A DNA stretch of 64,000 bases, from sequence record AB897757.1; one strand, 5' to 3'. Origin of the DNA: Klebsiella phage K64-1. Positions 41,228-61,681 of this stretch are shown in pieces. A program made the position numbers and the translations under genes. Position 1 is the stretch's first letter; each line of letters opens with the position of its first letter. The notes beneath the pieces are model-generated. The model saw only the letters and a list, made by a program, of their open reading frames with translations. It was not told where the DNA came from and ran no database searches.

Positions 41228-41235
41228 TATTTATA
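41228..41235 (-). promoter_or_regulatory. T4-type late promoter TATAAATA (minus strand)
   Basis: tatttata on plus equals TATAAATA on minus, about 26 nt upstream of ATG 41201 with RBS gaggt. Confidence 0.55.
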
Positions 41236-41252
41236 ATTCATCAAAACCTTAA

Positions 41253-43208
41253 TTATATTAAAAATAGTCTAATATAACATCTTGTTATTGTTGGTGTTAT
41301 TGGTGATGCTGTTGGATTATATAATGTTACATAAAAAGAGCCATTAATATTATTAGAAACAACTGAACATAGTAAACCATTAATATTTCCATCAAATTTA
41401 GGTTGTGAAAATGATTGTATTAAACCAGTGACACCAATCGTATCAGTGTAACTTTGTAATGCAGATGTGATGGATGCACCAGCGGCAATAGCCCCTGGAT
41501 TAAATGCAAAGTTCCAATCAATATATTTTGAACGTTGTATATATATGCCATCAAATAATATAGAAACGGTACCTGAATTTATGAAACGTAAACTTCCTGC
41601 TCCAATTTGTGATGGTTTTAACTGAAATGTTATAAGTTGCCAACCAGTAGATGCTGTTATAGTACTAGAACCAATATCAGTCGTACCATCAATATTTAAT
41701 TTTAATTCACCATTAGTTCCAGCAGTATCTACACATTTTACACGAGCTTGAATTGTCAATACTGTGTTAGAATCTAAATATTGTTTACCCAATTGAAATC
41801 TTCTAATTTCAACCAATGATGGTACATTCATTGTCGTGTACAATGATGCCATGGTGTCAGTTTGAAACATATTATTACTAGTACCAAACATGTTATGTGC
41901 TGAAATAAAATTTGGATCAATATAATCACCAACAGATGTTATGTTTCCATTACTAGTAAAACAAATAACAGGCTCTATACTTTGCGGTCTAGTACTTGTA
42001 ACATTAAATTGCATATTACCGCTGGCGACCACACCTCTATTATAAAAATTTCCAGATGCTTGTAATTTTCCACCTTCAACTGAACCAAAATATCCAGAAC
42101 AAGATAATGCGTCATTATCAATTAATTTAGTAAGATAAGCACATCCCGAACGCATACGTAATATGCCTTCATAATTATTATGATCAGTTGTGAAATGTGT
42201 AAAACCATTATTTGTTATTCTACATCTTGACATTTGCCCAAAGTCAATAACCGCTTTAGGGGTAATATTAGCACTTGTTGGTGTACCATCCCATTCGAAC
42301 TTATTACGTTCAATCCATATTAAATCTGGATTTGAATTAGTTGATGATTTAATCCAATTCCCACTACTATAACCTAATGTATTATTAGAAAAATGAAAAT
42401 TATTTACATTACTATTTGGAGTTCCAATATAATCATCCATTAATAAAATACCAGTAGTATCACTACCTATTCTTCTGAATAATGTATATTCACATGATGA
42501 TTCCATCATATCACGAGCAATAATTCCCCAGTCAGATATATTTTGAATAGCACAATTATTGATTCTCATATACGACCACGAAGTAACTTTAATTAAAGGT
42601 CCAGTATCAGTACTTGATTCACCTCGAACTTGTAAATTAAATAAACCACCACCCATTGGCCTTGTAGTTTGACCAGTACCATTAAAATGTATACCATAAC
42701 TTGCTGATGCTATTTTTTTAATAGTACTGCCGCCCGTATTAATATTAGAACCAGAATCTCCCCACAAACGTAATGTAGATGTAATATCTAATTCACCTAT
42801 CATAACATCTTTATAAATTTCACGAGGAGGAATATATAAAGATTCTGTCCCAGCTAAAATAGCTTTTTTAAATCTAGTGCTATCATCCGTAGCTGAATCT
42901 GAATCATAATCTAATAAATTTGGTATATTTTTAGTTAAACCATATGAAAATAGAGTATATGTCCCACTTGATGTTGTTAATATACATTTTACTGGATCTG
43001 AAACCCATGAAATCACATTACCATTAATAAAATTTCCGACATATGGTATTTGTGTATTATTATCAATAAAAACTTTTATGGTGGATGTATCAAGTCCAAC
43101 ACTAATATATTGTACTTCATCTATTTTAGTATTAAATTCAATTGCACATGATTTTCTAGATGTGTATCTTGATGTTGAACCTTTTGCTTGTGTTAATTCA
43201 GTAGACAT
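41253..43208 (-). CDS. tailspike/tail fibre protein, anchor family A (divergent N-terminus MSTELTQAKGSTS)
   Basis: N-terminal similarity to the IQPKGS family; beta-helix-like repeats. Confidence 0.7.
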   Translation of the reverse strand: MSTELTQAKGSTSRYTSRKSCAIEFNTKIDEVQYISVGLDTSTIKVFIDNNTQIPYVGNFINGNVISWVSDPVKCILTTSSGTYTLFSYGLTKNIPNLLDYDSDSATDDSTRFKKAILAGTESLYIPPREIYKDVMIGELDITSTLRLWGDSGSNINTGGSTIKKIASASYGIHFNGTGQTTRPMGGGLFNLQVRGESSTDTGPLIKVTSWSYMRINNCAIQNISDWGIIARDMMESSCEYTLFRRIGSDTTGILLMDDYIGTPNSNVNNFHFSNNTLGYSSGNWIKSSTNSNPDLIWIERNKFEWDGTPTSANITPKAVIDFGQMSRCRITNNGFTHFTTDHNNYEGILRMRSGCAYLTKLIDNDALSCSGYFGSVEGGKLQASGNFYNRGVVASGNMQFNVTSTRPQSIEPVICFTSNGNITSVGDYIDPNFISAHNMFGTSNNMFQTDTMASLYTTMNVPSLVEIRRFQLGKQYLDSNTVLTIQARVKCVDTAGTNGELKLNIDGTTDIGSSTITASTGWQLITFQLKPSQIGAGSLRFINSGTVSILFDGIYIQRSKYIDWNFAFNPGAIAAGASITSALQSYTDTIGVTGLIQSFSQPKFDGNINGLLCSVVSNNINGSFYVTLYNPTASPITPTITRCYIRLFLI

Positions 43209-43239
43209 TATATAATTTCTCCAAATATAATCTTAATAA

Positions 43240-43247
43240 TATTTATA
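43240..43247 (-). promoter_or_regulatory. late promoter TATAAATA (minus strand)
   Basis: inside a conserved 38-bp promoter/UTR cassette also present at 45394-45431. Confidence 0.55.
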
Positions 43248-43249
43248 AA

Positions 43250-43278
43250 GAAAAAGCCCCCAGAGAGGGGGCTTTATT
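43250..43278. terminator. terminator hairpin (agccccc/gggggct)
   Basis: 7-bp GC stem flanked by A/T runs. Confidence 0.55.
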
Positions 43279-43284
43279 GTTAGT

Positions 43285-45393
43285 TTATCCAGCTAATATA
43301 AAAGAAACCATTCTAGAAACATTAATATTTCCAGTAAATCCAGATACTTGCCATCTTGGTTTACATTTTACAGCACCCACTGGGGCATTGAATGTCCTAG
43401 ATGGTGTAGCAATATATCTACTATTACCATCTGAATAGTTTGGTAATGTTGTATCATTAAAAACAGTTCTCATATTTATTGATGAAGCAGATGAAGTTGA
43501 AATTAAATTGTCATTTACATCATACCAAGCAACTGAAAAAGTACACTGAATATTTCCAGTACTATCTAGTGCCGACAATGATAAATATAGACCTAATCTA
43601 TTTTTTACTGTAACAGGAATAAATGATTTAGTGGCTAAGTTAAAATAACCACCGGCACCAGTGACTTGTAATTGAGTTCCAGCAGTTCCACCTGTTATAA
43701 CTGTAGCAGACATGGCATTTCTATCTACACATGTATAACGTGTGAGTGCATCTAATGTTGCAGTACTGTTTACCACGGTGCCTACAACTTCATCACCCAT
43801 ATTATAACCTTTATTAAGTATCATTGTGTTAGATGGTAGTTGGAAGTAAGGATCTTTAATATATCCATTAATATATAATATAGTTTCATCTGAACACATT
43901 AAACAATCTTCTAGGTAAGGAGTTACTTCATGTCTTTGGTCTAGCCCATTGATATATACTGGGGTAGATTTTGCATCAATATGCAATCTACTAGATGAGT
44001 TAGTTCCAGTCGTATTGCTTCTTAACCTACTCAAATTAGTTATATTGTTCATAATAATAGATCTGTTGGAACCTACACTAGAACTTTGTGGACTTTCTGC
44101 TGAAAGAAGTAAACCATTGTATCCTTCCATATGACAACTCGTAAAGCTTACTTTAGAATATCCCCAAGTTGAAGTTCCATAAAAAACATTACCACTCGTA
44201 AAATCAAAAGAGCAATTAGTGAAATTTACATCAAAACCAGGCTGACTAATTTGAATGTGATTAGTTCTAGAACCACCAATTGTACAATCATTAAAAGTCA
44301 TCCTTTCGCCAGAGTTAGAACTCGTAGTATTAGGTACATAAATTCCAATTATTGTACTTTCTATATGGCAATCGGTTGCTGTAAATAAATAGGTATTTAT
44401 TGAACCAAAGGTTAAACCGTATCTTACCCCTCCTATAGATACACCATATAGAATGACATTTCTAACATCACTCATATTACTGGTATTACCAACAAAAATA
44501 CCATCTACATTTCCATCAAGGGTATTACCTAATACGCGGAAAGTACCTCCAATAGAACCTAGATTCCAACCTTTGTGATATGTTGTACTTATTCCTGACA
44601 CCTTATTTATTATTCTTATAACATAACTATTATCAGGCATACCTGAGCCATCAATTGTCACATTACCAATAGCAACAACAGAAACATAAGAGGGAATATC
44701 AAGTTGTCTTGATGGTTTGTAGGTTCCAGCCTTTAAATAAATAGCTTTTCTCCCATAAAAACCAACATTGGATACATAATTACTAACAATGGCAACAGCA
44801 GCATCCCATGCATCTGAAAAATCAACTGCTGGATTAAGAGCACCAAACCAAGCCATATCGATATAGTTCTCTGGTCTTTTCCATCTTTTTCCTGTTGCAG
44901 TGACAATAACAGTATATCCATCATCGATGGAAGTTACATCAGAAGAATCATAACAAAATATACCACCAGTAGTTGTACCTAATGTTGAATTTATTTGATT
45001 TAAAATAATTTGTTGACCATTTGTGGTTGGTTCTATTGAACGCAGCGAAGTTACAGATGATACTTTTCCTATATTACTATATCCTACTTCTCCTGTAATT
45101 TCTTGTCGCAAGTTAATATCTACTTGAGTTTTAATCAAAGCGAATTGCCCAGATGTAGTTTGTAATGTCAGTGAACCATTAGTAATAATCCATGAAATTG
45201 GAGTTCCAGTGGCTGTACCACGATACCAACAAGTTTCTGTACTTTCATCATATAAAATTGTATAAGGATCTATAAGTACTGAAGTAGATATATATCCTAC
45301 CGCAGTTTTTTTAATTCCAAAAAGACGAGCTATCGCTTCTTTATTTGTTTCTTTTGATATAGAACCTTTTGGCTGTGTTAATTTATTTGCCAT
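43285..45393 (-). CDS. tailspike protein, anchor family A (MANKLTQPKGSISKETN)
   Basis: conserved N-terminus; beta-helix-type repeats rich in N/G/T/S. Confidence 0.75.
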   Translation of the reverse strand: MANKLTQPKGSISKETNKEAIARLFGIKKTAVGYISTSVLIDPYTILYDESTETCWYRGTATGTPISWIITNGSLTLQTTSGQFALIKTQVDINLRQEITGEVGYSNIGKVSSVTSLRSIEPTTNGQQIILNQINSTLGTTTGGIFCYDSSDVTSIDDGYTVIVTATGKRWKRPENYIDMAWFGALNPAVDFSDAWDAAVAIVSNYVSNVGFYGRKAIYLKAGTYKPSRQLDIPSYVSVVAIGNVTIDGSGMPDNSYVIRIINKVSGISTTYHKGWNLGSIGGTFRVLGNTLDGNVDGIFVGNTSNMSDVRNVILYGVSIGGVRYGLTFGSINTYLFTATDCHIESTIIGIYVPNTTSSNSGERMTFNDCTIGGSRTNHIQISQPGFDVNFTNCSFDFTSGNVFYGTSTWGYSKVSFTSCHMEGYNGLLLSAESPQSSSVGSNRSIIMNNITNLSRLRSNTTGTNSSSRLHIDAKSTPVYINGLDQRHEVTPYLEDCLMCSDETILYINGYIKDPYFQLPSNTMILNKGYNMGDEVVGTVVNSTATLDALTRYTCVDRNAMSATVITGGTAGTQLQVTGAGGYFNLATKSFIPVTVKNRLGLYLSLSALDSTGNIQCTFSVAWYDVNDNLISTSSASSINMRTVFNDTTLPNYSDGNSRYIATPSRTFNAPVGAVKCKPRWQVSGFTGNINVSRMVSFILAG

Positions 45394-45421
45394 TATAATT
45401 CTCCAAATATAATTATAATAA

Positions 45422-45429
45422 TATTTATA
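45422..45429 (-). promoter_or_regulatory. late promoter TATAAATA (minus strand)
   Basis: in the conserved cassette; RBS ggag. Confidence 0.55.
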
Positions 45430-45432
45430 AAT

Positions 45433-45459
45433 AAAAAGCCCCGATATTGGGGCTTTTTA
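45433..45459. terminator. terminator hairpin (aagcccc/ggggctt plus T5)
   Basis: GC stem plus T-run. Confidence 0.55.
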
Positions 45460-45464
45460 TTTAA

Positions 45465-48400
45465 TTAACCAGACACTTGAATATTAAATGTCATATTAGT
45501 AGTCGGTGCAACATCAACATATATAGTAACTGTAGTTCCAGAAACAACCGTCCAATATTTTGTTGGGCCACTATATGTTCCTTGTGGGGTTACTTGAACA
45601 GAAAATGCAGAAATAGAACCAATAAAAGTTGATGATAAATCATATCCAATACTAGTTTGACCAGCAGGAATTGACCATTGATTTCTATAAAAAGAATAAT
45701 CTCTTCCAGTAGATGTATTAATTACATTTGATAACATTTTCATCGTTATGGATGTTGCAGTTACTGGTGTCGTTGTTCCATCAAATTCGGTATTAGCTAT
45801 TTTCAATTTATTAATTGATGTTGAATTTCTAGCATATATTTTTTTAATTATGCCATAACAATTAGTCATAGATAAATTAACTAAATTGTTAAATGTCCCA
45901 ATAGTATAATTTGTTGTCGAATTAAATTTACAATTATTAAAACTAACTCTAGTATTTGATGTATATTCGTTTTGACCAATATAGTCAACAACCGCACTAT
46001 TACCTGTTATAGTTGAATCAAATTGACAATTATCAAATGATATATCACGCAATACATATGTTAACTGTAATCCAGTCGTTGGTAATGTAAACTTACAATT
46101 AATATATTTTAATGTCTTACCATCTTTAAACACAGTATTAGATTGATCATTACTTACATCTATTCTACCAAAATGACAATCTCTATATACATCAAACAAT
46201 TGTGAATTTATTTGTGAATATGCATTTGGCATTATAATATTTTCAGCAACCCAATATGTTTGTACTATATTAGATGAATTTGGGTATGTATATACCAATG
46301 GAACACCACTAGTAGTGTCAAGTGAATATCCATTTGACACTTTCATATATTCACATGTACCAAGTGGTGAAATTATACCACCTACATTTTTTCCAACTTG
46401 AAAATTCTTGATATCAAAATGGACACAATCACCATTAACTACTACAATAACAGCATATCCAGGAGTTTGAGTTTGTTTAAAAGTCAATCCATCAATACAA
46501 AAATAATCATTAAGACCAATTGTTTGTGATGATTTAACAACTGCACATGCATGACTAGCAATAGAATTATTTGGATTAACTCCAATAGAATCAATCATCA
46601 TATTTTTAAATAAAATATTTTTATTATTTCCACCACCATTCCCAGAAATATAAAATAAATGTTCACCTATATTATCTGCATATATTCCATCTAATACAAT
46701 ATTAGATATATTATTACCCCATTGACTTCCACAATATAAAGAATTAACCATAGTAGTATTTTGAAAATATACAAACGTTGAATTATTTCCCAATCTCCAA
46801 TTTATCACTCTACCATACCAAGGATTCGTTCCTGATGTATCAATAATATTACTTCTATTACCATCAGTATATAATCCTGATACGGTAGAATAACTTAAAC
46901 TGTTAAAACGAATCATATCGCTATCTAATGGAGTTGCTCCATCAGGTAATTTAAATATAGTTCCATCAAATTTAAAAGTCATACCTTTTAATGTAGGTAT
47001 TACTACTGTTGTTATTAAAATTGTTCCAGTTGGTGTTATATATGTCATTCCAGACGTTAATGAATTAACTTCACTTTGCATTAGTGCTGTTTGATCTTGT
47101 GTTGAATTTGGTATTAATTTACTTATCAATACTTTACTATCAGTAAATTGTTTTTTTATATTATCTATTTCTGCTTGAACACTTAGACCACTTGAAGTAC
47201 CTACAATGCTAGATCCATTATTTGATGATAATAGTACTGAATTTACTTTATTGTTAAGAGTTTGCTGTAAATTGTTTCCATCAGATGTACCAACCATTAA
47301 TGAACCAGTATTTGATGATAAATCAGATTTACTAACAAATTGACCATTAGCAGTTTCATAAGTCAAATATGGATTAGTATTAAGAATTAATTTTCCTAAT
47401 ATTGCAACTAAATTATCTCCAATATTCAACGAACCATTAAGATCTATGTATTGACCATTATAAGTATAATGTCCTAATTCGATATTTTGTAATACACCAT
47501 TAATAAAAATATTAATACTTCCAAAATTATATGGAACAAAAATTCTGTTAATATTATCACTAGTTGCGGTATATGTCCAAGTAATAACATCTTTATTGGA
47601 GTCCAATTTATAAAACGGAGTAGAAGGTACATTTCCTAATGTACCAATACCAGACCAGACTGTACCATCTACCGGATATAACCAGTACTGATTTATTGTT
47701 GAAGTATTACCTGCTTTCCAAATTTTTAATGATCTTCGTGGTAATCCAAATGCTACTTCAATACTAGGTAAATGTGGTTGCCATTTTAAATTAATACCCT
47801 CAGCTTTTAATGAATCTTTTAATAAGTTCAATTCAGTAATTGATGCATAAGAACTTAAATCAGCTTTAGTAACTATATTGTCATCTTGTATAGGAGAATT
47901 ATATACAATAACGTGTATATCATCACCTTCTTGTAGTGGTGAACTTAATGTTACTTCTGTTCCATTTAAATCATAAGCTCCATTATCTGGATTTTGTAGA
48001 ATACCATTAATAAAAACCTGTAATTCACTAAAATGGAAATAAGGAATATTTATTTTATTACTGTTATTTACATCATCAATTACACTATTATACTCGGTAT
48101 TAATATTGTCAATTAAATTTAAACTATCCAAGAAAACTAATACTTCATCTCCTGCAAAAAGCTTACTTACGAATGATAATGTATTTCCTGATATTGTATA
48201 ATGTGTATCATATTGTAAAACCCCATTAATATATACAACTGGATCTATTATTGTACCTGTTATAGTAAAATCAGTTTGGTCTTGTATTGCTACTGCTGTG
48301 TAATTAGGCACAATCTTATCATTACTTAATACAAATATATTATCATCTTGTTGCATTGAAGAATTCAATGTAATAGTATTGTTTACTATTGTAAATGAAT

Positions 48401-50890: not shown

Positions 50891-53230
50891 CTATTTTTGT
50901 AATTGTTTTTCAATTCTATCAAGTTTTCTACGCTGATAGGCCATTTCCACTGCTAAACACTCTTCCATTCTGAGCATATATATTTCTCCCTCGGCTTTAT
51001 ATGGAGATAATACATTACCATTTTGATCATATGTTTCTTCTGATTCTATCCATGATTCATAAGTTATTAAGCCATAATCTTGCCAATTTAATCCTGCATT
51101 TTCTAACACTGATTTAATTTTTTGTGCTATATACCCAACATGCCATCTTGCATCGGTTATCCCTTTTACATTGATTGCAGCTTTCATTTTCCACATATTA
51201 AATTCAACATTTTCCCATGCATCAAGAAGTTCATCTGGTATTTTTTGTATATTGGATTTGTAATTTTCATCTGAAACAACAGTTACTGGATTTTGAACAT
51301 ATAAATTGTTAACCGTCAATGATGGTGAACCTATTGAATAAACAGATGTTGTTGTTGGTGTTATTGCATTACTACCAAAGACCCATTCTTGTGAACCATT
51401 AAATGAACGTATATATAATCTTCCTGAGCTATCAACCAAAATCCTAGCCATTGATGTTGTTTTGTCACCATTAGAATAAAAATCAATACTTTTTGAACCG
51501 GCGGTTCCGTTATAAATTCCAAGCTGAATACTACCATTGGTTTTTATTTGTCCGGTATTAGTAAAAGACAAAATATCTGTAGGTGTAACACTATAATCAG
51601 TTGATGTAGTGTAACTGACAACCAATTCACCATTATCATTCACAGTTAATATATGATTTTTATTGCATATATTTTTATTCGAAATTGAAATCTTTGAAGT
51701 TATATTTCTATTTGTATATGTATTAAATGTGCAATTAATTACCAAATAAGAATCATCCAGTACAGTTGCGGTGTCTGAATCGATATTATACGATGGTCCT
51801 TTATTGTATGTGTTAAGACTGTAATACGGGTTAATAAAATGGTTATTATCAAAAATGATGTTTTTACTGTTTCCTGTTATTTTAATTGATTTAACGTCAG
51901 TACTTGAATAAGCAGTTAAGCGATTCGTTGTTACTTGGCGGCAATTTTTGAAATTTATATTATAACAAGCTTCGATATAACCTAATCGATAATTGGTATC
52001 AACTGCCGAACCATTTTGTGAAAATATAGTTCCATAAAAATTAACATTAAAACAGTTTTTTAAATTATAACATTTAGCTTTTAAATTATGAGTTTCTATA
52101 TGCCCACCAAATACATTTATTGCATGATGTGGATAAGTACTATTAATTGATGAAGCATTGAATAAAATTGCATTATCAGCATTCGAGGTTTCAATTGTTG
52201 GTCTAATAAACGTTATTTGGTTTGAATCATCTCCACTACCATCACCAGTTGTACCACCATTTGCTGGGCCAGTATAAACTTCAAAAGTAAATCCATAAGA
52301 AACATCAGATGTTGATTGCATATTTGAAATATTTTGTATAAAGATATCTTCAAAAGTACTATCAAATAATAAATTAGCTACTACACCTCGTGCAAATCCA
52401 GAAAAACCTACACAACGCCAATTACTATGTACCACTGGCAGCCAGGCAGTTGAACTTCCTAGTACTGCACCAGTTTGATATGAAGCACCAGATCTAAATC
52501 CAATATTAATTAAATTTATTTTACATTGTGTTGCAGTAAAAGCATTTTGACCTTGTGTAATTGGTTGTAGAACAGTAGAAGTCATACCAGAACCAATTAA
52601 AGTATAACATGTACTCAAAGATCCAGTACTGTTTAAATATTTTGTGAATTTCATTTCAGTACTGTACTGAAAAACTCCAGGAGGAAAAACGATTGGCATT
52701 ACACCGTACATTTGTGAATTCACCGCTGTTTGTGGAATATATGATTGTACATAAGAAATAGCAGCATCCAATGCAGGAGACCAATCCCAAGTTTCCATAT
52801 CATTTAAATTTGGTTTACTTGTAATTAAATGTTGGAATTCCATAATAGACACAAAATTGCTATTCATATAACCAGCAACTGATTCGATTGATGATAAAGA
52901 ATCATTAATTTTTTTTCTTTGGTATCCTATTTTAAGGGAAGTATCTGGATTACTTAATCCTATTTTTAATAAAGTATAAGTACTGAAATCAGTGGTTAAT
53001 ATCAAATTACCATCACTATTCAGATTCCATGTTTGTGGATTTCCTTTAGCATTCCCAACATAAAAAACCATCTCAGAAATAGGATCAAAAACAACAATAT
53101 ATGTATCAATTAATATTTCAGTACTTAAATATTCAACTTCGGAAAATTTTAATCCCAAACTTAATGCTATGCTATTTTTATTTGTTTCTTTAGAAACAGA
53201 GCCTTTTGGTTGAATTAATCCGTTTATCAT
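50891..53230 (-). CDS. tailspike protein, anchor family A, with C-terminal intramolecular chaperone (peptidase S74-like) domain
   Basis: N-terminus MINGLIQPKGSVSKETN; C-terminal VSDENYKSNIQKIP ... YGLITYESWIE ... LRMEECLAVEMAYQRRKL resembles the endosialidase/T5 L-fibre autocleaving chaperone. Confidence 0.75.
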   Translation of the reverse strand: MINGLIQPKGSVSKETNKNSIALSLGLKFSEVEYLSTEILIDTYIVVFDPISEMVFYVGNAKGNPQTWNLNSDGNLILTTDFSTYTLLKIGLSNPDTSLKIGYQRKKINDSLSSIESVAGYMNSNFVSIMEFQHLITSKPNLNDMETWDWSPALDAAISYVQSYIPQTAVNSQMYGVMPIVFPPGVFQYSTEMKFTKYLNSTGSLSTCYTLIGSGMTSTVLQPITQGQNAFTATQCKINLINIGFRSGASYQTGAVLGSSTAWLPVVHSNWRCVGFSGFARGVVANLLFDSTFEDIFIQNISNMQSTSDVSYGFTFEVYTGPANGGTTGDGSGDDSNQITFIRPTIETSNADNAILFNASSINSTYPHHAINVFGGHIETHNLKAKCYNLKNCFNVNFYGTIFSQNGSAVDTNYRLGYIEACYNINFKNCRQVTTNRLTAYSSTDVKSIKITGNSKNIIFDNNHFINPYYSLNTYNKGPSYNIDSDTATVLDDSYLVINCTFNTYTNRNITSKISISNKNICNKNHILTVNDNGELVVSYTTSTDYSVTPTDILSFTNTGQIKTNGSIQLGIYNGTAGSKSIDFYSNGDKTTSMARILVDSSGRLYIRSFNGSQEWVFGSNAITPTTTSVYSIGSPSLTVNNLYVQNPVTVVSDENYKSNIQKIPDELLDAWENVEFNMWKMKAAINVKGITDARWHVGYIAQKIKSVLENAGLNWQDYGLITYESWIESEETYDQNGNVLSPYKAEGEIYMLRMEECLAVEMAYQRRKLDRIEKQLQK
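52655..52671. repeat. compound 17-bp palindrome TTCAGTAC-T-GTACTGAA
   Basis: two overlapping motif halves around a central T, inside the tailspike gene 50891..53230. Confidence 0.85.
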
Positions 53231-53259
53231 TACATTAACCTCAATTTACAATATACTAA

Positions 53260-53267
53260 TATTTATA
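53260..53267 (-). promoter_or_regulatory. late promoter TATAAATA (minus strand)
   Basis: about 30 nt upstream of ATG 53230, RBS gaggt. Confidence 0.5.
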
Positions 53268-53270
53268 ATA

Positions 53271-53299
53271 AAAAAGCCCCCATAAGGAGGCTTTTTTTA
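53271..53299. terminator. terminator hairpin (agccccc/ggaggct, one mismatch) plus T7
   Basis: GC stem plus T-run. Confidence 0.45.
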
Positions 53300-56220
53300 T
53301 TATAATGATATTTGCCAATATATAGTAGATGCATCTAAATTATTAGAACTTGTTATAGTGAAAGATACACCATTAACGATATTAGAAATTGATAATGTTC
53401 CTATATTAGAAGATGATAATATTCTTTTAAGATCTATATTAGATACATATCTTAAAGTGCTCGCTGTACTAGATGTAGATAATTTAACAGCAGATGTATT
53501 AATGGTGGCAGTGCCTGCTGTTAATGTTACCATACCAGATGTTGGTGCGGTTGTTGAATTTATATCTAAAGTGTTGTTATTTAACATTGGTGACAATGGC
53601 TGTGATGAATATCCACCCAACAAATACCATAAGTTCCCATATCCTGCCATATTAGTATTTTTAACACTAACTAGTTCTGGTCTAATACCAGACGAGCCTC
53701 TAAAATATAAACATCTTGTTTGAATCGTACTGTAAGGAAAATCACAATTGTCAATATAAAGTGAAAATTGATTTGCAGGATCTGAATTAGAGCCACAATC
53801 GACACATGCACTTGAATTATCAATTCCTCTTGAATTTATAATCCTTCCGCCCAACATAGCATATCCATATTGATTGTTAAGAGCTTCACAATCTTCAATA
53901 TTTCCACCTTCCCATACTAAACTGAATCCGTTTCTACCATTATTAGTTGCTTTGCACCCAATGAGTCTAGTATTGATCGCACCGTCACCCTGACCGAATC
54001 CATCTAATGTTGAATAATCAGCCAAACAATTAATATATTTTACATTTCTTGCTCTTATTTGGAATCCATCATCACCAGATTTATATGCACGACAATTTGA
54101 AAATGTTATATTTCTTCCAATATCATGAGTATCAAAACCTGACAATGTTGACGACGTTGAAGTACAATCATTTATTAATATACCATTTGGTTCTCCATAT
54201 ATGGATGACCAATTTATAGAAACTCCATGTCTACAATCATCAAAAAAGCATTTATCAACAGTAACTTCTTCTGAATATCCTAAGATTTCTACACCATACC
54301 ACCCCTGATGATATGCATTACAATTTTCAATTAATACATTTCTACAACTGTTTATTTTTAATGCAGTTCTTCCGCTAACATCACCTGTGTATTTTTCTTT
54401 AGAACCATATAATTGTGTATTTTTAATAACGATATTATCACAATATACCATATTCATTGTTATTGGGAATAACGTAGTATAATTGATATTATTGAATGTT
54501 AAACCATCAATATTTACATTTTTCACAATATCCATTTTAGAAATTAATGTATTATCACTTATTGTAAAATCATAAAGGGCAATTTTATCAATATATAATT
54601 GATTAGCATCAATCTTCGTTATTTGTCTCATTATTCCAATTTTAACACCTTGAGCATTAACCCCTTCAACCAATTTTTCAGAACGAATTTCTACATAATC
54701 ACCAACTGAAAATTTAGATGCATCAGTAACATTAACAATAAAAGATGAACTAGACACGTCACTTGTTAATGTTGTTGTTATTGTAGTTGATACTGAACCA
54801 GAACAAATCAGACCTTGAATCGTTGGTCCAGATGGGAAAAGGAAAACATCTTTATTAAAATATAAATTTGTATTACTTTTTATAGTTAGTGCTTTAGTTA
54901 AAGTTAAATTAGAATCAAATCTCAACGATACGTTACCAGTAGATAAAAATGTATTAATACCATCAATAGTAGTAAACCATGATGATAATGCTGGACCAAT
55001 ATATCTTCTTTTAATCCTTTTATTATTAATGACGAAACATGTTCCACCATCTTCAACGGTAATGGTGTCATTATTGTCATAATAAAAATAACCAGCACCC
55101 TCCGTTGTGTTTAATGTTTTACCACAAACGAAAATCTCATTAATTTCATCCCAATTTATATTTTTTATATCTGAATAAATTATTTTAGATATACTATTAC
55201 TATTATATAATATATCAAATTCTTCTTGTATAGAATTTCCAGATTTAGTATTAATATATGAAGATGCATTTACATCCAATAATTCTTGTTTTAAAACATA
55301 TTCATCACTTTGGATAATAATATCACCAAGCATTATAATAATTTCGTCATCTTGATATAATTCTTCAGAAAAAGTGATGATTCTATCAGCACCAATACTA
55401 TAAGCAGTAATGGGATTCTGCAAAACACCATTAATATAAACAATTGCAGTACTGAAATCATATGGCACTTGAATTGTTGTTTGGCCTTGCATTGCATTAG
55501 CTGTATAAATTCTATTAAGTTTATCATTAGTACTGATATTCGGATTGCCAATAAAAACATATAATAAATCACCAGCTTCTAATTCAGTAGTGAATGTTAA
55601 TGTGCTACCAGATACGGTGTAATTCAACCCAGGTAATTGAATTGAACCATTAACAAATACAGTTATAGTACTGAATGTGAATGGAATATTAAAATCAGTT
55701 TGACCATCAGTTGCTGATGCAGAATATGTTTTAATACTTGCATTAAAATTCGGAGTAATTTTTTCAAAACCAGTACTGGTTTCGGGATTATTACCAAGGA
55801 CACCAACCCCATTCCACACTGTACCATCAGTGTATAACCAATAATCATCTGATGTTGCAGTAGTACCAGATTTCCACATTTTTAATGAATTTTTAGTTAG
55901 TCCATAAGCAACTTCAACAGTAGGTAGATGTGCGTTCCAGTCCAGAGTTAAACCCTCTGTTTCCATTTTTTCTTTTAATTTGCTGTATATAACCGGAACC
56001 CAAGCAGTATCTGAAATACCACCATCAGTATTTGGATTATTAGTACTGGTAATATGAGGTAATGTACCTTTCCATACATATCCAGTTTTAATTGAAGTTA
56101 CTGGATCTGTATAATATAAAATTTGGTTGTTTGATACTAATCGTTTGTTAATAACAAAGTCACCAGCATCAATTAGTGCACCTGAAATATTTGTTGCAAA
56201 CTTAAATTGTTCAATGACAT
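53300..56220 (-). CDS. tailspike protein, anchor family B, with apparent frameshift in the first about 15 codons
   Basis: ORF track 53300..55966 starts at an internal Met; the same frame stays open to 56221 and encodes the family-B N-terminal domain (QILYYTD...GYVWKGTLPH...NPNTDGGISDTAW), but ATG 56220-56218 (MSLNNLS...) is in another frame and stops after 15 codons; pectate-lyase-like beta-helix body. Confidence 0.55.
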
Positions 56221-56274
56221 ATTAAACCTCATCTAAAAGTTTATGTATAGTATTATTTATGATGCACATTAGAA

Positions 56275-56282
56275 CTAAATAC
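56275..56282 (+). promoter_or_regulatory. putative late promoter variant CTAAATAC
   Basis: same CTAAATACAT element precedes the 59378 gene; about 30 nt upstream of ATG 56315 with RBS agagg. Confidence 0.35.
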
Positions 56283-56314
56283 ATGAAAGCAAATGCAAAC
56301 TAAGAGGTTTTGAC

Positions 56315-59305
56315 ATGTCTTTAAGTAATTTAAGCTCAAGTAACAGTAATGGGGCATTTCTTGATTATGGAGAATTCAGAAGTGGTGTTTACATCCAAAC
56401 ATCAAATCAGATTTTATACTTCACTGATGAAAATGGAAATAAAGTAGGTTATCAGTGGAAGGGACTTTTGCCTCACACAACAACAACAAATGATCCAAGC
56501 ACGGATGGTGGTATTTCGGATACTGCTTGGTGTAGTATTGTTGGCAGTGGATTTATTGAAAAATTATCAAAAGAGGGGATTGATTTAAGTTGGAAAGCAC
56601 ACTTACCAACAGTTGAAGTTTCTTACAATTTACCGCATAAATCACTAAAAATATGGGAAGAAGGTACGAATAGTACTGATAATGATTATTGGTTATACCC
56701 AGGTGATGGTACCGTGTGGAATGGGATTGGTGTTCTTGGTGATATACCAGATGCACCTTTTAAGCAAATTGTACCACAAAATAATGTAATAGAATGGAGT
56801 GCAATTGCAACAGAAGGACAAAACCAATTTACTGTACCGTATGAATTCACAAATATATCAGTTTTTATTAATGGATTATTACAGAATAAAAGTACTGGTG
56901 GATATGTAGTTAATGGTAGTACTGTTACATTAAATGGTTCATTAAAAGCTGGTGATGACATTCACGTAGTAATATCAAATATCCCTATTAAAAATATAAA
57001 TTATATTACTGATGTTGAATTATCACAACCCGATGCAGCACAAAAAATTGGATTATTGCATGGTGGAAATATACAAAATTTACAAAATTTTCTTTCTTTT
57101 GATATGTTTAATATTGATAAAACTGGTTCAACTGATGTAACTAGTCAAATAAATAATATTTTTTCATTAGCAAATCAATTAAATATTCCAATAAAACAAC
57201 ATGATGGTACATATTTAGTTTCTGGCTCCACTATATTTACAATAAACACGGATTGTGATCTATCCGGCGTAACAATTTTACCATCTTCTAATTTTACTGG
57301 ATATTTTCTATATACACAAAATGAACAGCCAACAACATATAATTCATCTTCATCATTGGTCACTTTAATAAATTCAGCAACAATTAATGCAAATGATTCA
57401 ATATTATATGGATTAATAAATGATACCACATTGGATGGTAATGCTATTTTTATGAAAGGCAATGATCCTCTATATGTTGCTCGTGGCACAACAAAAAATT
57501 GGTGGTGTAATACGAGAATATCAAATCGAGGTAAAATGGATGATTATTTAAAATATGGGGTATCAGGTATAAATGAAGTTATTTCATTACCTATATCAAA
57601 AAAAGTAACTACAATAAAATTACCAAATTGGGATTTTATAAATCAACCTGCTAATAATGGCGTAATAAGATTTAATAATATTTCTAGATATAGAATACAC
57701 GGTGGTAGTGTTTTTAATAGGCCACTTAATGATATAAATAAAGATCCAGTTATAATTAGTATAAATTATGCATATGATATAATACTTCAAGATTTTTATG
57801 ATGAATATCCATCTTGGCCATTAGTAGGTGGCTCTATTGCTTATGCATATACTATAAATTTCAACTATATTAATCGTGTTACATTTAAAGATATTAATTC
57901 ACAAGGTTATGGTTGGGGAATTGTTGGGGGGCAACTAGCAACTAATATTACATATCTTCGTTGTAATATTAATAGAGTTGATATGCATGATCCATTTATG
58001 GGGTATTTAAAAATTTTAGACTGTGATTTGGGATATTATGGCGTATCTGCAACTGGTATGGGAGATATGTATATTGAAAGAACTACTTTTAATATTGATG
58101 ATCTAGCATTTAATGGTTGGAGAGAAGTTGATGGTATAATAAACACTAGACCGGATTTTGGTGGGTGGTTTGATGGTGGTGTATATATAAAAGATATTAC
58201 AATTATTGGAGATGCATCCAAATTTAGAGAAATTAATAATCGCGGAGTTTCTTTATTTTCAGCATATTCATATAATGCAACATTAAGTTATATTCCGAAT
58301 GGATCACCAGTCGAACCGTGGGGATTTAAAGAAATTATAGTTAATGGATTACGATGCACTAAACCTATAACAGGAAAAAGATTTTCATCACTAGTATATG
58401 CTGCTTCTGTACAAAATGTAGATTATTTTCCAAGACATGTAAAATTTAATAATTGTGATTTTAATTCTTCTGATGTTGAATGTATAGATTTACATGGATG
58501 GAAAATAACACCAGACAATTCAAGTAAAACATCAATATCAAATACTATGAATTTTAAATCAACAAATTTTATAGAATTCACTGATTGTTCATTTGTGGGG
58601 TTAGAAATTTTAAGACCATATTCTTCATATGATTATATGAATTTAGAGTTAAAACTTAATAATTGTAAATATATTGGTTCAAACATTTCTCCTATTAGTT
58701 TTTACACTGATCAAGTTGGAAATTACGAGTTTACAAACTGTGATATCAATTTTATTAGTGATACTACAAAGAGTACTTCAAGTTTATCAAATAGACAGTC
58801 ATCATTTGTAATAAATGGTGGTCAGATAAATTCTGTATCAGTACCATTTTCAATATTATATAATAGTGGTTATTCGACTCCAGTTTTAGTTAATAATACA
58901 ATTTTTAAAGGTTCATTTTCACAATCATCAGTGACTTCTATTAATTTAAATGTGGCAGAATTCGCACAATTATCAAATTGTAGATTTTATAGTAATGTGA
59001 ATAATTCTTATATATCACCAGCATTATGGCTAGGTAGTACTTCGAACTCAGCAACATCAATAACTGTTATGCGTGGAAATAAAATTAATACAGTTATAAC
59101 CAATACCACAACTGTTAGTGGTATATCCATAAAAACTGATATAATTCCATTTGGAGTTGCATCTGGACACATAAATGGGTCTTTTTATGTTGATGCTACT
59201 GGAACAACTGGAACATACCAATTGTATTTAAATTCGTTGAATTTGAAATCACAAATTGGAAAAATTGTTTCAAATGGTACAATATCAGGAATTTATTTAC
59301 AGTAA
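56315..59305 (+). CDS. tailspike/tail fibre protein, anchor family B (996 aa)
   Basis: N-terminus MSLSNLSS...QILYFTD...GYQWKGLLPH...TDGGISDTAW shared with 53300, 59378 and 61710; HLPTVEVSYNL module; one FINGLLQ module. Confidence 0.75.
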   Translation: MSLSNLSSSNSNGAFLDYGEFRSGVYIQTSNQILYFTDENGNKVGYQWKGLLPHTTTTNDPSTDGGISDTAWCSIVGSGFIEKLSKEGIDLSWKAHLPTVEVSYNLPHKSLKIWEEGTNSTDNDYWLYPGDGTVWNGIGVLGDIPDAPFKQIVPQNNVIEWSAIATEGQNQFTVPYEFTNISVFINGLLQNKSTGGYVVNGSTVTLNGSLKAGDDIHVVISNIPIKNINYITDVELSQPDAAQKIGLLHGGNIQNLQNFLSFDMFNIDKTGSTDVTSQINNIFSLANQLNIPIKQHDGTYLVSGSTIFTINTDCDLSGVTILPSSNFTGYFLYTQNEQPTTYNSSSSLVTLINSATINANDSILYGLINDTTLDGNAIFMKGNDPLYVARGTTKNWWCNTRISNRGKMDDYLKYGVSGINEVISLPISKKVTTIKLPNWDFINQPANNGVIRFNNISRYRIHGGSVFNRPLNDINKDPVIISINYAYDIILQDFYDEYPSWPLVGGSIAYAYTINFNYINRVTFKDINSQGYGWGIVGGQLATNITYLRCNINRVDMHDPFMGYLKILDCDLGYYGVSATGMGDMYIERTTFNIDDLAFNGWREVDGIINTRPDFGGWFDGGVYIKDITIIGDASKFREINNRGVSLFSAYSYNATLSYIPNGSPVEPWGFKEIIVNGLRCTKPITGKRFSSLVYAASVQNVDYFPRHVKFNNCDFNSSDVECIDLHGWKITPDNSSKTSISNTMNFKSTNFIEFTDCSFVGLEILRPYSSYDYMNLELKLNNCKYIGSNISPISFYTDQVGNYEFTNCDINFISDTTKSTSSLSNRQSSFVINGGQINSVSVPFSILYNSGYSTPVLVNNTIFKGSFSQSSVTSINLNVAEFAQLSNCRFYSNVNNSYISPALWLGSTSNSATSITVMRGNKINTVITNTTTVSGISIKTDIIPFGVASGHINGSFYVDATGTTGTYQLYLNSLNLKSQIGKIVSNGTISGIYLQ

Positions 59306-59334
59306 AAATAAAAGCACCTTCGGGTGCTTTTATT
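59306..59334 (+). terminator. intrinsic terminator (aaagcacc ttcg ggtgcttt)
   Basis: 8-bp stem, 4-nt loop, T-run. Confidence 0.6.
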
Positions 59335-59338
59335 TTTA

Positions 59339-59346
59339 CTAAATAC
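59339..59346 (+). promoter_or_regulatory. putative late promoter variant CTAAATAC
   Basis: between terminator and ATG 59378 (RBS cgagg). Confidence 0.35.
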
Positions 59347-59377
59347 ATAATAAAATCTTTATAACGAGGTTTATTAA

Positions 59378-61681
59378 ATGTCATTAATTCAACTTTCACC
59401 AAGTAATGGTGATTTATTATTAATAAATTCCGGCTCATTTAGTACTGGTAAAGTTATAAGAACTAGAAATGAACTTGTTTTTTATACTGATCAATATGGT
59501 AACAGCACTGGATATCGCTGGTTAGGTAATTTACCTCACGTGATTAATGGTAATTCACCACAAACTGATGGTGGTATTTCAAGTACATCATGGGAATCTT
59601 ATATTACTTCAAATTTATATGATAAATTAAAATCAGAAAATATAACTCTATCAGGTACCGCCCATTTACCTACTGTTGAAGTTGCTTATGGACTGAAAAA
59701 AGGATCATTAAAAGTTTGGTCTGCTGGATTAGTCAGTTCATCATCACAGTACTGGTTATATACCGATGGGACTGTATGGAGTGGTGTTGGTGTGTTAGGA
59801 ACTGAACCAGATGTTCCATTCACACAAATACATCTACAACGAGATATTATAAAATATAATTATATTGTTCAAACAGATGGTGAAACACTAATTAATATAC
59901 CATATGATTTTACATCTATCGATGTTTTTATTAATGGTGTATTACAAAATTCGAATTCAGGTTCTTATAAAATTATTCAAAGTACAATTCAGTTTAGCGA
60001 CGTATTGAATAAAGGTGATAATATTCAATTCTATCTTTCTAATGTTCCAATTTCGAGTGTTCGCTTTGCTTTATCTAGTGATTTAACTAATTATGTTTTA
60101 AAATCAGACCTTTCTAATACATCAGGTGCGAATAACGTTGGGTTTTATCCAGGCGGGACTGTTCAAGATGCAATCGTATATACTACACCTGAAATGTTTG
60201 GTGCAATTGGAGATGGTATTACAGATGATACTAATGCATTACAAAATGCAATTAATTTTTCAAAAAATAAAACATTACTTTTTAGTAATGGTAAAAAATA
60301 TAGAACAAAAAATTTAATAGTACCACATCCAATGACATTTAAAGGTTTAGGTAGAAGACAAGATGGTGCTATTATTCCATACGGAAATGTTTCATCTGAA
60401 TCATTCATTCATACTGGAACATTAATATTATTAACTACTTCTAGTACAGTAACATTCTATGATCTTACAGTTGATGCAAGAGGAATAACTCTATCATTCG
60501 TTGATGGACAAAGATTAACTGGAGTTGGTGCAGCAGACAATAACAGTGGTGTATATCAATCTGGTCTTCAAATGTATAATTGTAATGTTTCTGGATTTAG
60601 TGGGAATAATTTATACGGCGGCGGGTCAAAATCATTTGGTATCCTAAAAGATTGCCAATTTGAAAGTTCGGGTAAATCATGTGTTAGAATAGATGGTGTA
60701 GATTGGAGAATTTCACATTGTGCAATTGGTAGATCATTAGAATCTTATGGTATTGAAATTCTAAATGAGAATAACTTTGTTTCTAATTGTGATTCTTATT
60801 TCAATAAACTTTCTGGTATTTTTTATCAACAACCAACTGGAATGGCTTTTATTAAATTAATAGGGAACACTATTAACAGTAATGGTCAACATGGTATTTC
60901 TTGTTCATTACCATATGCCCAGCCAGCAGGTACCGTAATTACGAACAATATTTTTTGGAATAATAGTACAGAATTGACAGGAACTTATCATAATATTGAT
61001 TTAAATTATGGTCGAGGACATATAGTTGAAAATAATGTTCATAAAGCATATCAAGCCACTGCTGGTTCTGATTCTGCGAGATGTGGTTACTGCATAAATT
61101 TGAGAAACGGGGCAACACTATCTGGATTCATTAATGATGCAATAGATCCATTATACTCATATGTTATCGATAAGATAAATGTAAATTCCCAAAATTTTGC
61201 TAACCAAAATGAAATATCAATTGGTACAGGTTTATCATTAACAAAAACCGTATCTTCAGATACATCAATAGGAATAAAACTTAATATAAATTCAGAAAGC
61301 TATGATAGAGTTCAAATAAATCCTGGTAAAATTTTATTAGGAAATGGTTCAGCAGAACCAACACATGGTATACAACAATTAGCAGCGTATCCTGGAATAA
61401 CAATGGGAGTACTAGGATTAGGTGTTGTTGGAAATTATTCTTCATCAGTTTTTCGTATAGGGACACATCGTATATGGTCTGGTGGCGATAACACACTGAG
61501 AACCAAATATGGGGCAGATCCTACATCAGCAACAGATGGAAATATATTATCAGTAAAAGTGTCAGTCCCATCTACCGCTACAAGTACTGGTATAGTTGGA
61601 CAATGGGCAGCCGATGATACATATTTATATATATGTACAGCAGCTAACACATGGAAGAGGGTATCTATAAATACTTGGTAA
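59378..61681 (+). CDS. tailspike protein, anchor family B, pectate-lyase-fold depolymerase-like
   Basis: family-B N-terminus; HLPTVEVAYGL module; FINGVLQ module; MFGAIGDGITDDTNALQNAIN pectate-lyase-3-type motif; beta-helix repeats. Confidence 0.75.
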   Translation: MSLIQLSPSNGDLLLINSGSFSTGKVIRTRNELVFYTDQYGNSTGYRWLGNLPHVINGNSPQTDGGISSTSWESYITSNLYDKLKSENITLSGTAHLPTVEVAYGLKKGSLKVWSAGLVSSSSQYWLYTDGTVWSGVGVLGTEPDVPFTQIHLQRDIIKYNYIVQTDGETLINIPYDFTSIDVFINGVLQNSNSGSYKIIQSTIQFSDVLNKGDNIQFYLSNVPISSVRFALSSDLTNYVLKSDLSNTSGANNVGFYPGGTVQDAIVYTTPEMFGAIGDGITDDTNALQNAINFSKNKTLLFSNGKKYRTKNLIVPHPMTFKGLGRRQDGAIIPYGNVSSESFIHTGTLILLTTSSTVTFYDLTVDARGITLSFVDGQRLTGVGAADNNSGVYQSGLQMYNCNVSGFSGNNLYGGGSKSFGILKDCQFESSGKSCVRIDGVDWRISHCAIGRSLESYGIEILNENNFVSNCDSYFNKLSGIFYQQPTGMAFIKLIGNTINSNGQHGISCSLPYAQPAGTVITNNIFWNNSTELTGTYHNIDLNYGRGHIVENNVHKAYQATAGSDSARCGYCINLRNGATLSGFINDAIDPLYSYVIDKINVNSQNFANQNEISIGTGLSLTKTVSSDTSIGIKLNINSESYDRVQINPGKILLGNGSAEPTHGIQQLAAYPGITMGVLGLGVVGNYSSSVFRIGTHRIWSGGDNTLRTKYGADPTSATDGNILSVKVSVPSTATSTGIVGQWAADDTYLYICTAANTWKRVSINTW

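What the first reader, a model, noticed from the sequence alone, without database searches (positions are those of the whole stretch)
53300..56224. Tailspike gene with family-B N-terminus split between two frames (frameshift, programmed slip or pseudogene)
On the minus strand, ATG 56220-56218 opens MSLNNLSLQQIFQVH and then hits a stop. Those first residues match the paralog N-termini MSLSNLS and MSLTNLN.

The -1 frame, open from 56221 down to 53300, continues the same paralogous domain without interruption: ATNISGALIDAGDFVINKRLVSNNQILYYTDPVTSIKTGYVWKGTLPHITSTNNPNTDGGISDTAW, then METEG. The first Met in that frame is 85 codons downstream.

The switch falls around plus-strand 56195-56206, within C-AAT-TTA-AGT-TTG, a weak slippery-like stretch. 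So either a -1 ribosomal frameshift or transcriptional slip makes the full-length protein, or a 1-nt indel (possibly a sequencing error) is present, or the gene expresses an N-terminally truncated spike lacking its anchor.
Basis: seen in the sequence. Interest (0 to 1): 0.6.

Follow-up and report, generated by a model that had tools for sequence, protein, structure and literature searches.

The report
Two-base insertion splits K64-1 tailspike gene
The split start of this phage tailspike gene is caused by two extra bases found only in the deposited Klebsiella phage K64-1 sequence, so it is most likely a sequence error or a private mutation, not a programmed frameshift.

Summary
The window is the tail-fibre/depolymerase cluster of Klebsiella jumbo phage K64-1. 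The gene is S2-4, the known K1-capsule depolymerase. ATG 56220 (minus strand) opens MSLNNLSLQQIFQVH*, and the frame starting at 56221 carries the rest of the conserved N-terminal domain. The first canonical start in that frame is ATG 55966, which begins the annotated 888-aa protein.

The cause is a 2-nt insertion, not 1 nt. The window reads AAGT[TT]GCAAC at 56198-56199, where six related phage genomes read AAGTGCAAC, and 12 orthologous proteins start in one frame with an MSLNNLSATN-type N-terminus.

Independent Logan assemblies of two public runs (ERR7847573, ERR7847535) give 13,484 bp with zero mismatches to the window. The only difference is that the TT is missing, which gives one continuous frame, assembled through residue 472. 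The TT allele occurs in no searched collection.

There is no canonical slippery heptamer, no homopolymer run and no suitably placed stimulatory structure. The "frameshift" is therefore private to the deposit. It is most likely a sequence or finishing error (about 0.7), otherwise a stock-specific lesion (about 0.25).

The real gene most likely encodes 972 aa. The 84 residues missing from the database entries form most of a CBA120-tailspike-like head domain. Interest is low and mainly concerns annotation.

The parts
53300..56220 (-). Whole S2-4 gene of phage K64-1 (K1 capsule depolymerase tail-fibre protein). It encodes 972 aa once the 2-nt insertion is removed. It is the positional ortholog of RaK2 gp531.
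   Evidence: 100% identity to LC121104 (S2-4). Repaired translation. Orthologs and synteny.
56198..56199 (-). The 2-nt insertion that breaks the frame (TT on the minus strand). The window reads AAGTTTGCAAC where all other sequences read AAGTGCAAC.
   Evidence: blastn against RaK2. Junction comparison of 7 other sequences. Logan contig L009 is identical except for this 2-nt gap. The TT allele was not found in the viral, genome or metagenome collections.
56173..56220 (-). The short 15-codon ORF MSLNNLSLQQIFQVH* created by the insertion. Its first 7 codons are the true start of S2-4.
56227..56230 (-). Shine-Dalgarno sequence GAGG, 6 nt upstream of ATG 56220. A T4-late-promoter-like CATAAATA lies further upstream.
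   Evidence: Upstream sequences of all tail-fibre genes. The junction is identical in relatives. The Muenster record annotates a ribosome-binding site here.
55961..56170 (-). Coding sequence for the N-terminal head domain (repaired residues about 17-86; CBA120 tailspike head-like, Pfam Tail_spike_N-like). Almost all of it lies upstream of the annotated start and is missing from the 888-aa database protein.
   Evidence: Profile search against PDB: 5w6h TSP4 E 2.6e-9, 4oj5 TSP1 E 3.9e-6, 5w6f/6nw9 TSP3. Weak PF18668 hit at aa 20-76. Conserved in 31 of 32 homologs that carry this N-terminal region.
53300..55966 (-). The ORF as annotated in the databases (888 aa, starting METEG). This is the construct used for the activity tests and for the solved structure.
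   Evidence: P0001; PDB 9k4a/9k4b, residues 34-265 identical to query residues 84-315
54530..54778 (-). K1-lyase Rider domain (repaired residues 481-563)
   Evidence: Pfam PF24149, E 5.5e-32
54032..54442 (-). Right-handed beta-helix, best-matching stretch (repaired residues 593-729); the catalytic body
   Evidence: Pfam PF13229, E 6.7e-11
53309..53542 (-). K1-lyase C-terminal domain (repaired residues 893-970)
   Evidence: Pfam PF24146, E 9.4e-20
53277..53289 (-). Terminator-like hairpin followed by a T run, just downstream of the S2-4 stop codon
   Evidence: consensus scan only
56315..59305 (+). Divergently transcribed paralog S2-5 (K64 depolymerase, 996 aa) with the same N-terminal module. 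It served as the anchor for finding the independent Logan contig.

Best explanation
The window is phage K64-1, and the gene is S2-4, its K1-capsule depolymerase tail-fibre protein. The functional gene starts at ATG 56220, behind a GAGG Shine-Dalgarno sequence. It encodes one 972-aa protein made of four parts:
- an N-terminal CBA120-tailspike-like head domain (about aa 17-86);
- further conserved N-terminal assembly domains, up to about aa 320;
- the K1-lyase Rider domain and beta-helix;
- the K1-lyase C-terminal domain.

The deposited sequence carries two extra bases (TT, 56198-56199) after codon 7. They push the rest of the gene into another frame, so gene callers fell back on the first in-frame ATG (55966, METEG, 888 aa).

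The two bases are private to this deposit. They are most likely an error of sequencing, assembly or finishing. No frameshifting mechanism is involved.

Shown: the insertion, its absence from every other sequence examined, and the domain content. Inferred: that it is an error rather than a real lesion in the sequenced stock, and that the head domain is needed to mount the spike on the branched fibre.
For: 1. **Identity of the window.** It is 100% identical to the K64-1 entries for S2-4, S2-3 and S2-5.
2. **Related genomes.** Six related Alcyoneusvirus genomes (RaK2, Muenster, KP13-7, RCIP0023, phiKp_21, OU509535) read AAGTGCAAC and translate MSLNNLSATNISG... in one frame. The flanking DNA is otherwise identical, apart from one substitution in OU509535.
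3. **Orthologous proteins.** All 12 orthologous proteins from genomes and metagenomes, down to 67% identity, start in one frame with an MSLNNLSATN-type N-terminus. Of the 32 homologs aligned over this N-terminal region, only K64-1 S2-4 starts at METEG.
4. **Independent assemblies.** Contigs from runs ERR7847573 and ERR7847535 (L009, L011, L012, L013; 13,484 bp) have 0 mismatches to the window. RaK2 differs from them by 0.3-13%.
   - The single difference is the 2-nt gap at this site.
   - In L009 the gene is called from the MSLNNLS ATG. It runs in one frame into the K1-specific body, 472 aa to the contig end.
5. **TT allele.** It was absent from viral contigs, genome contigs and metagenome contigs.
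6. **Rest of the window.** Compared with RaK2, this is the only uncompensated frame-breaking indel in a conserved coding stretch of the 64-kb window.
7. **Expression signals.** They sit before ATG 56220 and not before ATG 55966.
8. **Function, from the literature.** K64-1 is reported to infect hosts of 10 capsular types. S2-4 is the one K64-1 protein reported active against K1, one of those ten types, so a virion-mounted S2-4 is expected (PMC6872550). In RaK2 the N-terminal domains of gp531-gp533 are proposed to mediate fibre assembly (PMC10253068).
Against: - No raw reads of the original K64-1 sequencing could be inspected.
- Going from one T to three is not a typical homopolymer error, and the deposit is otherwise error-free over the 13.5 kb that could be compared. 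An isolated error is therefore not especially likely a priori.
- The origin of the ERR runs is unknown. They could come from a sub-stock that never had, or has since lost, a real insertion.
- The 84 upstream codons show no decay. That fits an error, but it fits a very recent mutation equally well.
- The primary host-range paper (Pan et al. 2017) could not be read here; its content is taken from citing papers.
Confidence: 0.7

Rival explanations
1. The TT insertion is a real mutation in the K64-1 stock that was sequenced. S2-4 would then be a fresh pseudogene, or would be expressed only as an N-terminally truncated product from ATG 55966. That product lacks most of the head domain and is probably not mounted on the fibre. 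Such a lesion would be tolerated because the phage was propagated on a K64 host, where the K1 spike is dispensable.
For: - The deposit is otherwise perfectly concordant with independent contigs over 13.5 kb, so its base-calling is good.
- A 1-to-3 T change is not a classic sequencing artefact.
- From memory, unverified here: Pan 2017 describes phage mutants that lost single depolymerases and remained viable.
- The 888-aa recombinant product is active and folds (PDB 9k4a; PMC11652154).
Against: - An otherwise identical genome lacks the insertion.
- K64-1 is reported to infect hosts of all ten capsular types, and K1 is listed among them (PMC6872550). That should require a virion-bound S2-4.
- ATG 55966 has no Shine-Dalgarno sequence, and the Met is not conserved.
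- The 84 bypassed codons show no decay.
Confidence: 0.25
2. The insertion is real, and full-length S2-4 is still made by recoding. One route is a -1 (or +2) ribosomal slip around AGU-UUG, where tRNA-Leu re-pairs from UUG to UUU and gives MSLNNLSL-ATNISG.... Another is initiation at a non-canonical codon (ATT 56215) in the downstream frame.
For: - The frames overlap for 16 codons, so a shift anywhere between 56221 and 56173 would work.
- A P-site slip from UUG to UUU keeps two of three base pairs (inference).
- A moderately stable hairpin lies downstream, z -2.2.
- K1 infectivity is reported despite the deposited frameshift (PMC6872550).
Against: - The frameshift is not conserved in any of the 6 related genomes, 12 orthologous proteins or the K64-1-identical contig. 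It cannot be an evolved feature.
- There is no X XXY YYZ heptamer.
- The T run of 3 is far too short for transcriptional slippage.
- The hairpin starts about 28 nt downstream rather than 5-9 nt, and the same sequence is present in the in-frame orthologs.
- 5 of 200 shuffles fold at least as well.
Confidence: 0.03

Closest known systems
Klebsiella phage K64-1 S2-4, the K1 capsule-specific depolymerase (BAW85698 / YP_009153201; PDB 9k4a, 9k4b)
   Same: It is the same gene. There is 100% nucleotide identity over the annotated 2667 nt. The PDB chain is identical from METEG onwards over the 232 residues compared. K1-lyase Rider, beta-helix and C-terminal domains are present.
   Different: The database protein and the solved construct start at METEG. 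The gene as repaired here has 84 more N-terminal residues, which include most of a head domain.
RaK2 gp531 (ORF531, K54-host depolymerase and primary receptor-binding protein) and its positional orthologs in Muenster, KP13-7, RCIP0023, phiKp_21 and OU509535
   Same: They share the same locus and orientation, and the same divergent arrangement with the next fibre gene. The N-terminal roughly 320 aa are about 90-97% identical, and the 5' end is identical at the DNA level.
   Different: The catalytic bodies are unrelated, with different capsule specificities. These genes are in one frame, and only the K64-1 deposit has the TT.
N-terminal head domains of the E. coli phage CBA120 tailspikes TSP1-4 (PDB 4oj5, 5w6f/6nw9, 5w6h; Pfam PF18668 Tail_spike_N)
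   Same: A profile of the first 88 residues matches TSP4 (E 2.6e-9), TSP1 and TSP3 head domains. In CBA120 and in the RaK2 model these N-terminal domains build the branched fibre (PMC10253068).
   Different: Sequence similarity is low, and the single-sequence Pfam score (22.4 bits) is below the family cut-off of 25. The binding partner in K64-1 has not been tested.
Programmed -1 frameshifts in phage tail genes (for example lambda G/GT, on a slippery heptamer)
   Same: Only that two overlapping frames both carry parts of one tail protein.
   Different: There is no slippery heptamer, no conservation of the two-frame arrangement and no alternative product of evident use. The frame break is absent in all relatives.

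Membership tests
Programmed -1 ribosomal frameshift site | Slippery heptamer X XXY YYZ in the zero frame within the overlap of the two frames | tested here: not met
   The overlap region ATG TCA TTG AAC AAT TTA AGT TTG CAA CAA ATA TTT CAG GTG CAC TAA was read directly. No heptamer of that form is present.
Programmed -1 ribosomal frameshift site | Stimulatory stem-loop or pseudoknot 5-9 nt downstream of the slip site | tested here: not met
   The first stable hairpin starts about 28 nt downstream of UUUG. The z-score is -2.2, and 5 of 200 shuffles fold at least as well. The same sequence is present in the in-frame orthologs.
Programmed -1 ribosomal frameshift site | The two-frame arrangement is conserved in related genomes | tested here: not met
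   6 related genomes, 12 orthologous proteins and a K64-1-identical Logan contig are all in one frame.
Transcriptional slippage site | Homopolymer run of about 7 or more A or T at the shift point | tested here: not met
   The run is TTT, 3 nt.
Alcyoneusvirus branched tail-fibre depolymerase (RaK2 gp531 / K64-1 S2-4 position) | Synteny: located between the S2-3/gp530 lyase gene and the divergently transcribed S2-5/gp532 gene | tested here: met
Alcyoneusvirus branched tail-fibre depolymerase (RaK2 gp531 / K64-1 S2-4 position) | Conserved N-terminal assembly region beginning MSLNNLSATN..., including a CBA120-like head domain | tested here: met
   Met only after the TT is removed. The N-terminal region, about 310-340 aa, is 88-97% identical to the closest orthologs P0002-P0004, P0006, P0007, P0009 and P0010. 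PDB profile hits to CBA120 TSP head domains.
Alcyoneusvirus branched tail-fibre depolymerase (RaK2 gp531 / K64-1 S2-4 position) | Presence in the virion fibre and attachment through the N-terminal domains | not testable with these tools
   Shown for RaK2 gp531 by immunogold labelling and mass spectrometry (PMC10253068). Not shown here for K64-1 S2-4.
K1 capsule-specific polysaccharide lyase (K1-lyase fold) | K1-lyase Rider domain, beta-helix and K1-lyase C-terminal domain | tested here: met
   PF24149 at 110 bits, PF13229 at 42.5 bits and PF24146 at 71 bits, all above their cut-offs.
K1 capsule-specific polysaccharide lyase (K1-lyase fold) | Degrades K1 capsule | not testable with these tools
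   Reported for the recombinant 888-aa S2-4 (Pan et al. 2017, as cited in PMC11652154, and PMC6872550). The PDB entry 9k4a is named as K1-specific.

The most novel reading that the evidence does not exclude
The TT is really present in K64-1 virion DNA, and enough full-length S2-4 is still made to mount a K1 spike on the fibre. This would happen by unprogrammed low-level -1/+2 slippage at AGU-UUG, or by initiation at a non-AUG codon in the downstream frame. It would show that a multi-spike phage can keep a host type with a frameshifted spike gene through leaky decoding.
Probability: 0.03. Interest if true: 0.45.

Novelty: not a real feature. Interest (0 to 1): 0.12.

Why it matters
The main value is as a correction to the record.

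- **What is affected.** The K1 depolymerase S2-4 of K64-1 is widely cited and has been solved structurally. Every database entry (GenBank, RefSeq, UniProt, PDB 9k4a) starts at METEG and lacks 84 residues, which hold most of a head domain.
- **Who should care.** Anyone modelling how the eleven K64-1 receptor-binding proteins assemble into the branched fibre, or swapping spikes between phages, should use the 972-aa form. Otherwise S2-4 looks as if it had no docking end.
- **What is unaffected.** The catalytic part, and therefore therapeutic use of the enzyme.
- **What it does not reveal.** No new recoding mechanism.

Tried and rejected
- **Exact-protein look-ups.** Look-ups of the 888-aa S2-4, S2-3, S2-6 and S2-2 in public assemblies found nothing on record. 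Only S2-5, NrdD, the NAMPT-like protein and a 404-aa protein gave Logan contigs.
- **A second phage with the K1-type S2-4 body.** None was found in IMG/VR or in JGI metagenomes. No protein in the 5.8-billion-sequence set covers more than 48% of the repaired protein, apart from K64-1's own entry. The intact allele is therefore confirmed only by the ERR7847573 contig, and only up to residue 472.
- **The TT allele.** It was absent from the viral, genome and metagenome collections.
- **Literature.** Pan et al. 2017 (J Virol) is not held. No paper mentions ERR7847573. No paper on the 9k4a structure was found. The sequencing platform used for the original deposit could not be established.
- **Sigma-70 promoter scan.** Uninformative: 24 sites found against 26 expected.
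- **Programmed frameshift and transcriptional slippage.** Both were considered and rejected (see the membership tests).
- **Chance resemblance of MSLNNLS to the paralog N-termini.** Rejected, because the DNA on both sides of the break is identical to the orthologs.

Full report
**What the window is.** The region has about 31% G+C. It holds ten large tail-fibre-like ORFs in two divergent blocks.
- A megablast of 53000-56500 against GenBank phages gives 100% identity to three Klebsiella phage K64-1 gene entries: LC121104 (S2-4, 2667 nt), LC121103 (S2-3) and AB897513 (S2-5/K64dep).
- The same search gives 92-97% identity over the 5' third of the gene to RaK2, Muenster, KP13-7, RCIP0023, phiKp_21 and OU509535, all of them Alcyoneusvirus jumbo phages.
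- The finding therefore concerns S2-4, the K1-capsule depolymerase of K64-1. It is listed as 888 aa (BAW85698, YP_009153201) in reviews (PMC11652154; PMC6872550).

**The observation.** It holds at the stated coordinates.
- On the minus strand, ATG 56220 follows a GAGG Shine-Dalgarno sequence with a 6-nt spacer. It reads MSLNNLSLQQIFQVH and then TAA.
- The frame starting at 56221 is closed upstream by a TAA. Downstream it is open to 53300 and continues ATNISGALIDAGDFVINKRL...KLKEKMETEG.
- Its first ATG/GTG/TTG is ATG 55966, which begins the annotated 888-aa ORF.
- The paralogs S2-5, S2-6 and S2-7 begin MSLSNLS, MSLIQLS and MSLTNLN. They align with the repaired N-terminus at 57%, 51% and 30% identity.

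**What the lesion is.** The annotated orthologs in RaK2 (gp531), Muenster (gp231), KP13-7, RCIP0023 and phiKp_21, and the unannotated OU509535, all read GAGGTTTAATATGTCATTGAACAATTTAAGT-GCAACAAATATTTCA... This translates MSLNNLSATNISG... in a single frame.
- The window reads ...AAGTTTGCAAC...: two extra T on the minus strand, at 56198-56199.
A -1 (or +2) shift would be needed to bypass it.
- A protein search with the repaired 972-aa sequence found 12 positional orthologs, down to 67% identity. Each starts with an MSLNNLSATN-type N-terminus and runs 827-992 aa.
- Of the 32 hits aligned over this N-terminal region, counting the paralog families, only the K64-1 S2-4 entry starts at METEG.
- The Met used as the annotated start is not conserved: P0011 has Leu there. 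It also has no ribosome-binding site, unlike most of the other fibre genes.

**Independent sequence of the same phage.** An exact-product look-up of the neighbouring S2-5 protein returned a 6142-bp contig from the Logan assembly of public run ERR7847573.
- It aligns to window 54801-60944 with 0 mismatches and a single gap of 2 nt, at exactly this site.
- In it the S2-4 gene is called from the MSLNNLS ATG. It runs in one frame through the conserved head region into the K1-specific body, 472 aa to the contig end.
- Three further contigs are 100% identical to the window: two from the same run and one from ERR7847535, of 3195, 2401 and 1746 bp.
- RaK2 differs from these contigs by 0.3-13%.
- In total, 13,484 bp of independently assembled sequence differ from the window only by the TT. 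These runs therefore contain K64-1, or a clone of it, with an intact S2-4 start.
- The TT allele was not found in IMG/VR, in the GTDB species genomes or in JGI metagenomes.

**Is there a recoding signal?**
- The 16-codon overlap contains no X XXY YYZ heptamer.
- The T run is 3 nt, far too short for transcriptional slippage.
- The only notable downstream hairpin begins about 28 nt after UUUG. The 121-nt stretch folds with z = -2.2, and 5 of 200 shuffles fold as well. The same sequence is present in the orthologs, which need no shift.
- A frameshift absent from every relative, and from an otherwise identical genome, cannot be an evolved programmed event.

**How good is the deposit elsewhere?** The whole 64-kb window was aligned to RaK2.
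- Every other indel inside a large ORF that is not a multiple of 3 is either one of a compensating pair in a divergent stretch or lies at the edge of the alignment in divergent sequence. The exception is an A9/A10 tract at 10891, where it is RaK2 that looks broken.
- The TT is therefore an isolated anomaly. This cuts both ways: the deposit is generally accurate, so neither an error nor a mutation is expected a priori.

**What the missing 84 residues are.**
- Pfam gives a sub-threshold Tail_spike_N (PF18668) match at aa 20-76.
- A profile of ten diverse N-termini hits the head domains of CBA120 TSP4 (5w6h, E 2.6e-9), TSP1 (4oj5) and TSP3 (5w6f/6nw9), and of other tailspikes.
- The RaK2 study places four N-terminal domains in the first 310 aa of gp531. 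It proposes that gp531-gp533 dock to gp528 through their head domains. It also shows that gp531 is in the fibre and is the primary receptor-binding protein (PMC10253068).
- The rest of S2-4 carries a K1-lyase Rider domain, a beta-helix and a K1-lyase C-terminal domain.
- S2-4 is identical from METEG on, over the 232 residues compared, to PDB 9k4a/9k4b, "Depolymerase, capsule K1-specific". That structure was solved from the 888-aa construct.

**Weighing error against real mutation.**
- K64-1 is reported to infect hosts of ten capsular types. S2-4 is the one K64-1 protein reported active against K1, which is one of those ten types (PMC6872550).
- Infection should need S2-4 on the virion. By analogy with RaK2 and CBA120, that needs the N-terminal domains. 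This step is an inference.
- A stock with a fixed TT would be expected to lose K1 hosts.
- Together with the TT-less, otherwise identical contigs, this favours an error in the deposit (about 0.7) over a real lesion private to the sequenced stock (about 0.25). Leaky or programmed recoding is a remote possibility (about 0.03).
- The raw reads could not be inspected, the primary paper could not be read, and the ERR runs could not be identified.

**Verdict.** The known K1 depolymerase gene of K64-1 is split by a 2-nt insertion found only in the deposited sequence.
- The real gene is most likely a single 972-aa ORF spanning 53300-56220.
- The practical consequence is an annotation correction for a much-used protein.
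- Interest is low, and nothing here is new in kind.

Noticed in passing
window 10880-10895 (ORF 10609-11280, +); RaK2 locus L007 12394-12959: At a poly-A tract the window has A9 and RaK2 has A10. The window has one intact 223-aa ORF, while RaK2 annotates two small ORFs (ORF480, ORF481) over the same stretch. Here it is RaK2 that looks frameshifted. Alternatively, the tract could be a slippage-prone site.
   Followed up: partly
window about 23699-23714; RaK2 locus L007 25187-26246: RaK2 carries about 1 kb more DNA, including an HNH endonuclease gene (ORF499), between the cytidyltransferase and NAMPT genes. It is absent from the window, which looks like a presence/absence polymorphism of a homing endonuclease.
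   Followed up: no
window 15818-16108: About 290 bp after the DNA ligase gene has no counterpart in RaK2. The two flanking alignments abut in RaK2.
   Followed up: no
window 41228-41235, 43240-43247, 45422-45429, 53260-53267 (all -) and 61666-61673 (+): The T4-late-promoter-like octamer TATAAATA sits 27-37 nt upstream of the start codons of S1-2, S1-3, S1-1, S2-3 and S2-7. The motif is not enriched in the window overall (12 found, 20.8 expected). S2-4 has the one-mismatch form CATAAATA upstream of ATG 56220.
   Followed up: partly
L001 4468-4480 (RaK2 gp531 start); window 56220-56232: RaK2 annotates gp531 from an ATG four codons further upstream (MRFNMSLNN...). That ATG overlaps the GAGG ribosome-binding site used by the MSLNNLS start, which the other genomes annotate. 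The RaK2 start is probably called too far upstream.
   Followed up: no
L009, L011, L013 (run ERR7847573) and L012 (run ERR7847535): Two public sequencing runs of unknown origin contain DNA 100% identical to K64-1, in short contigs of 1.7-6 kb. This suggests K64-1 itself at low coverage in those samples.
   Followed up: partly
window 38991-47361: This stretch covers the S1-2, S1-3 and S1-1 depolymerase genes and the 3' part of S2-1. It has no long (over 300 bp) alignment to the corresponding RaK2 stretch. The flanks are 94-99% identical, which indicates cassette-like replacement of spike bodies.
   Followed up: no
PDB 9k4a/9k4b versus window 53300-55966: The solved structure of the K1-specific depolymerase was made from the METEG-start construct with a 33-residue tag. 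It therefore lacks the first 84 native residues inferred here.
   Followed up: partly
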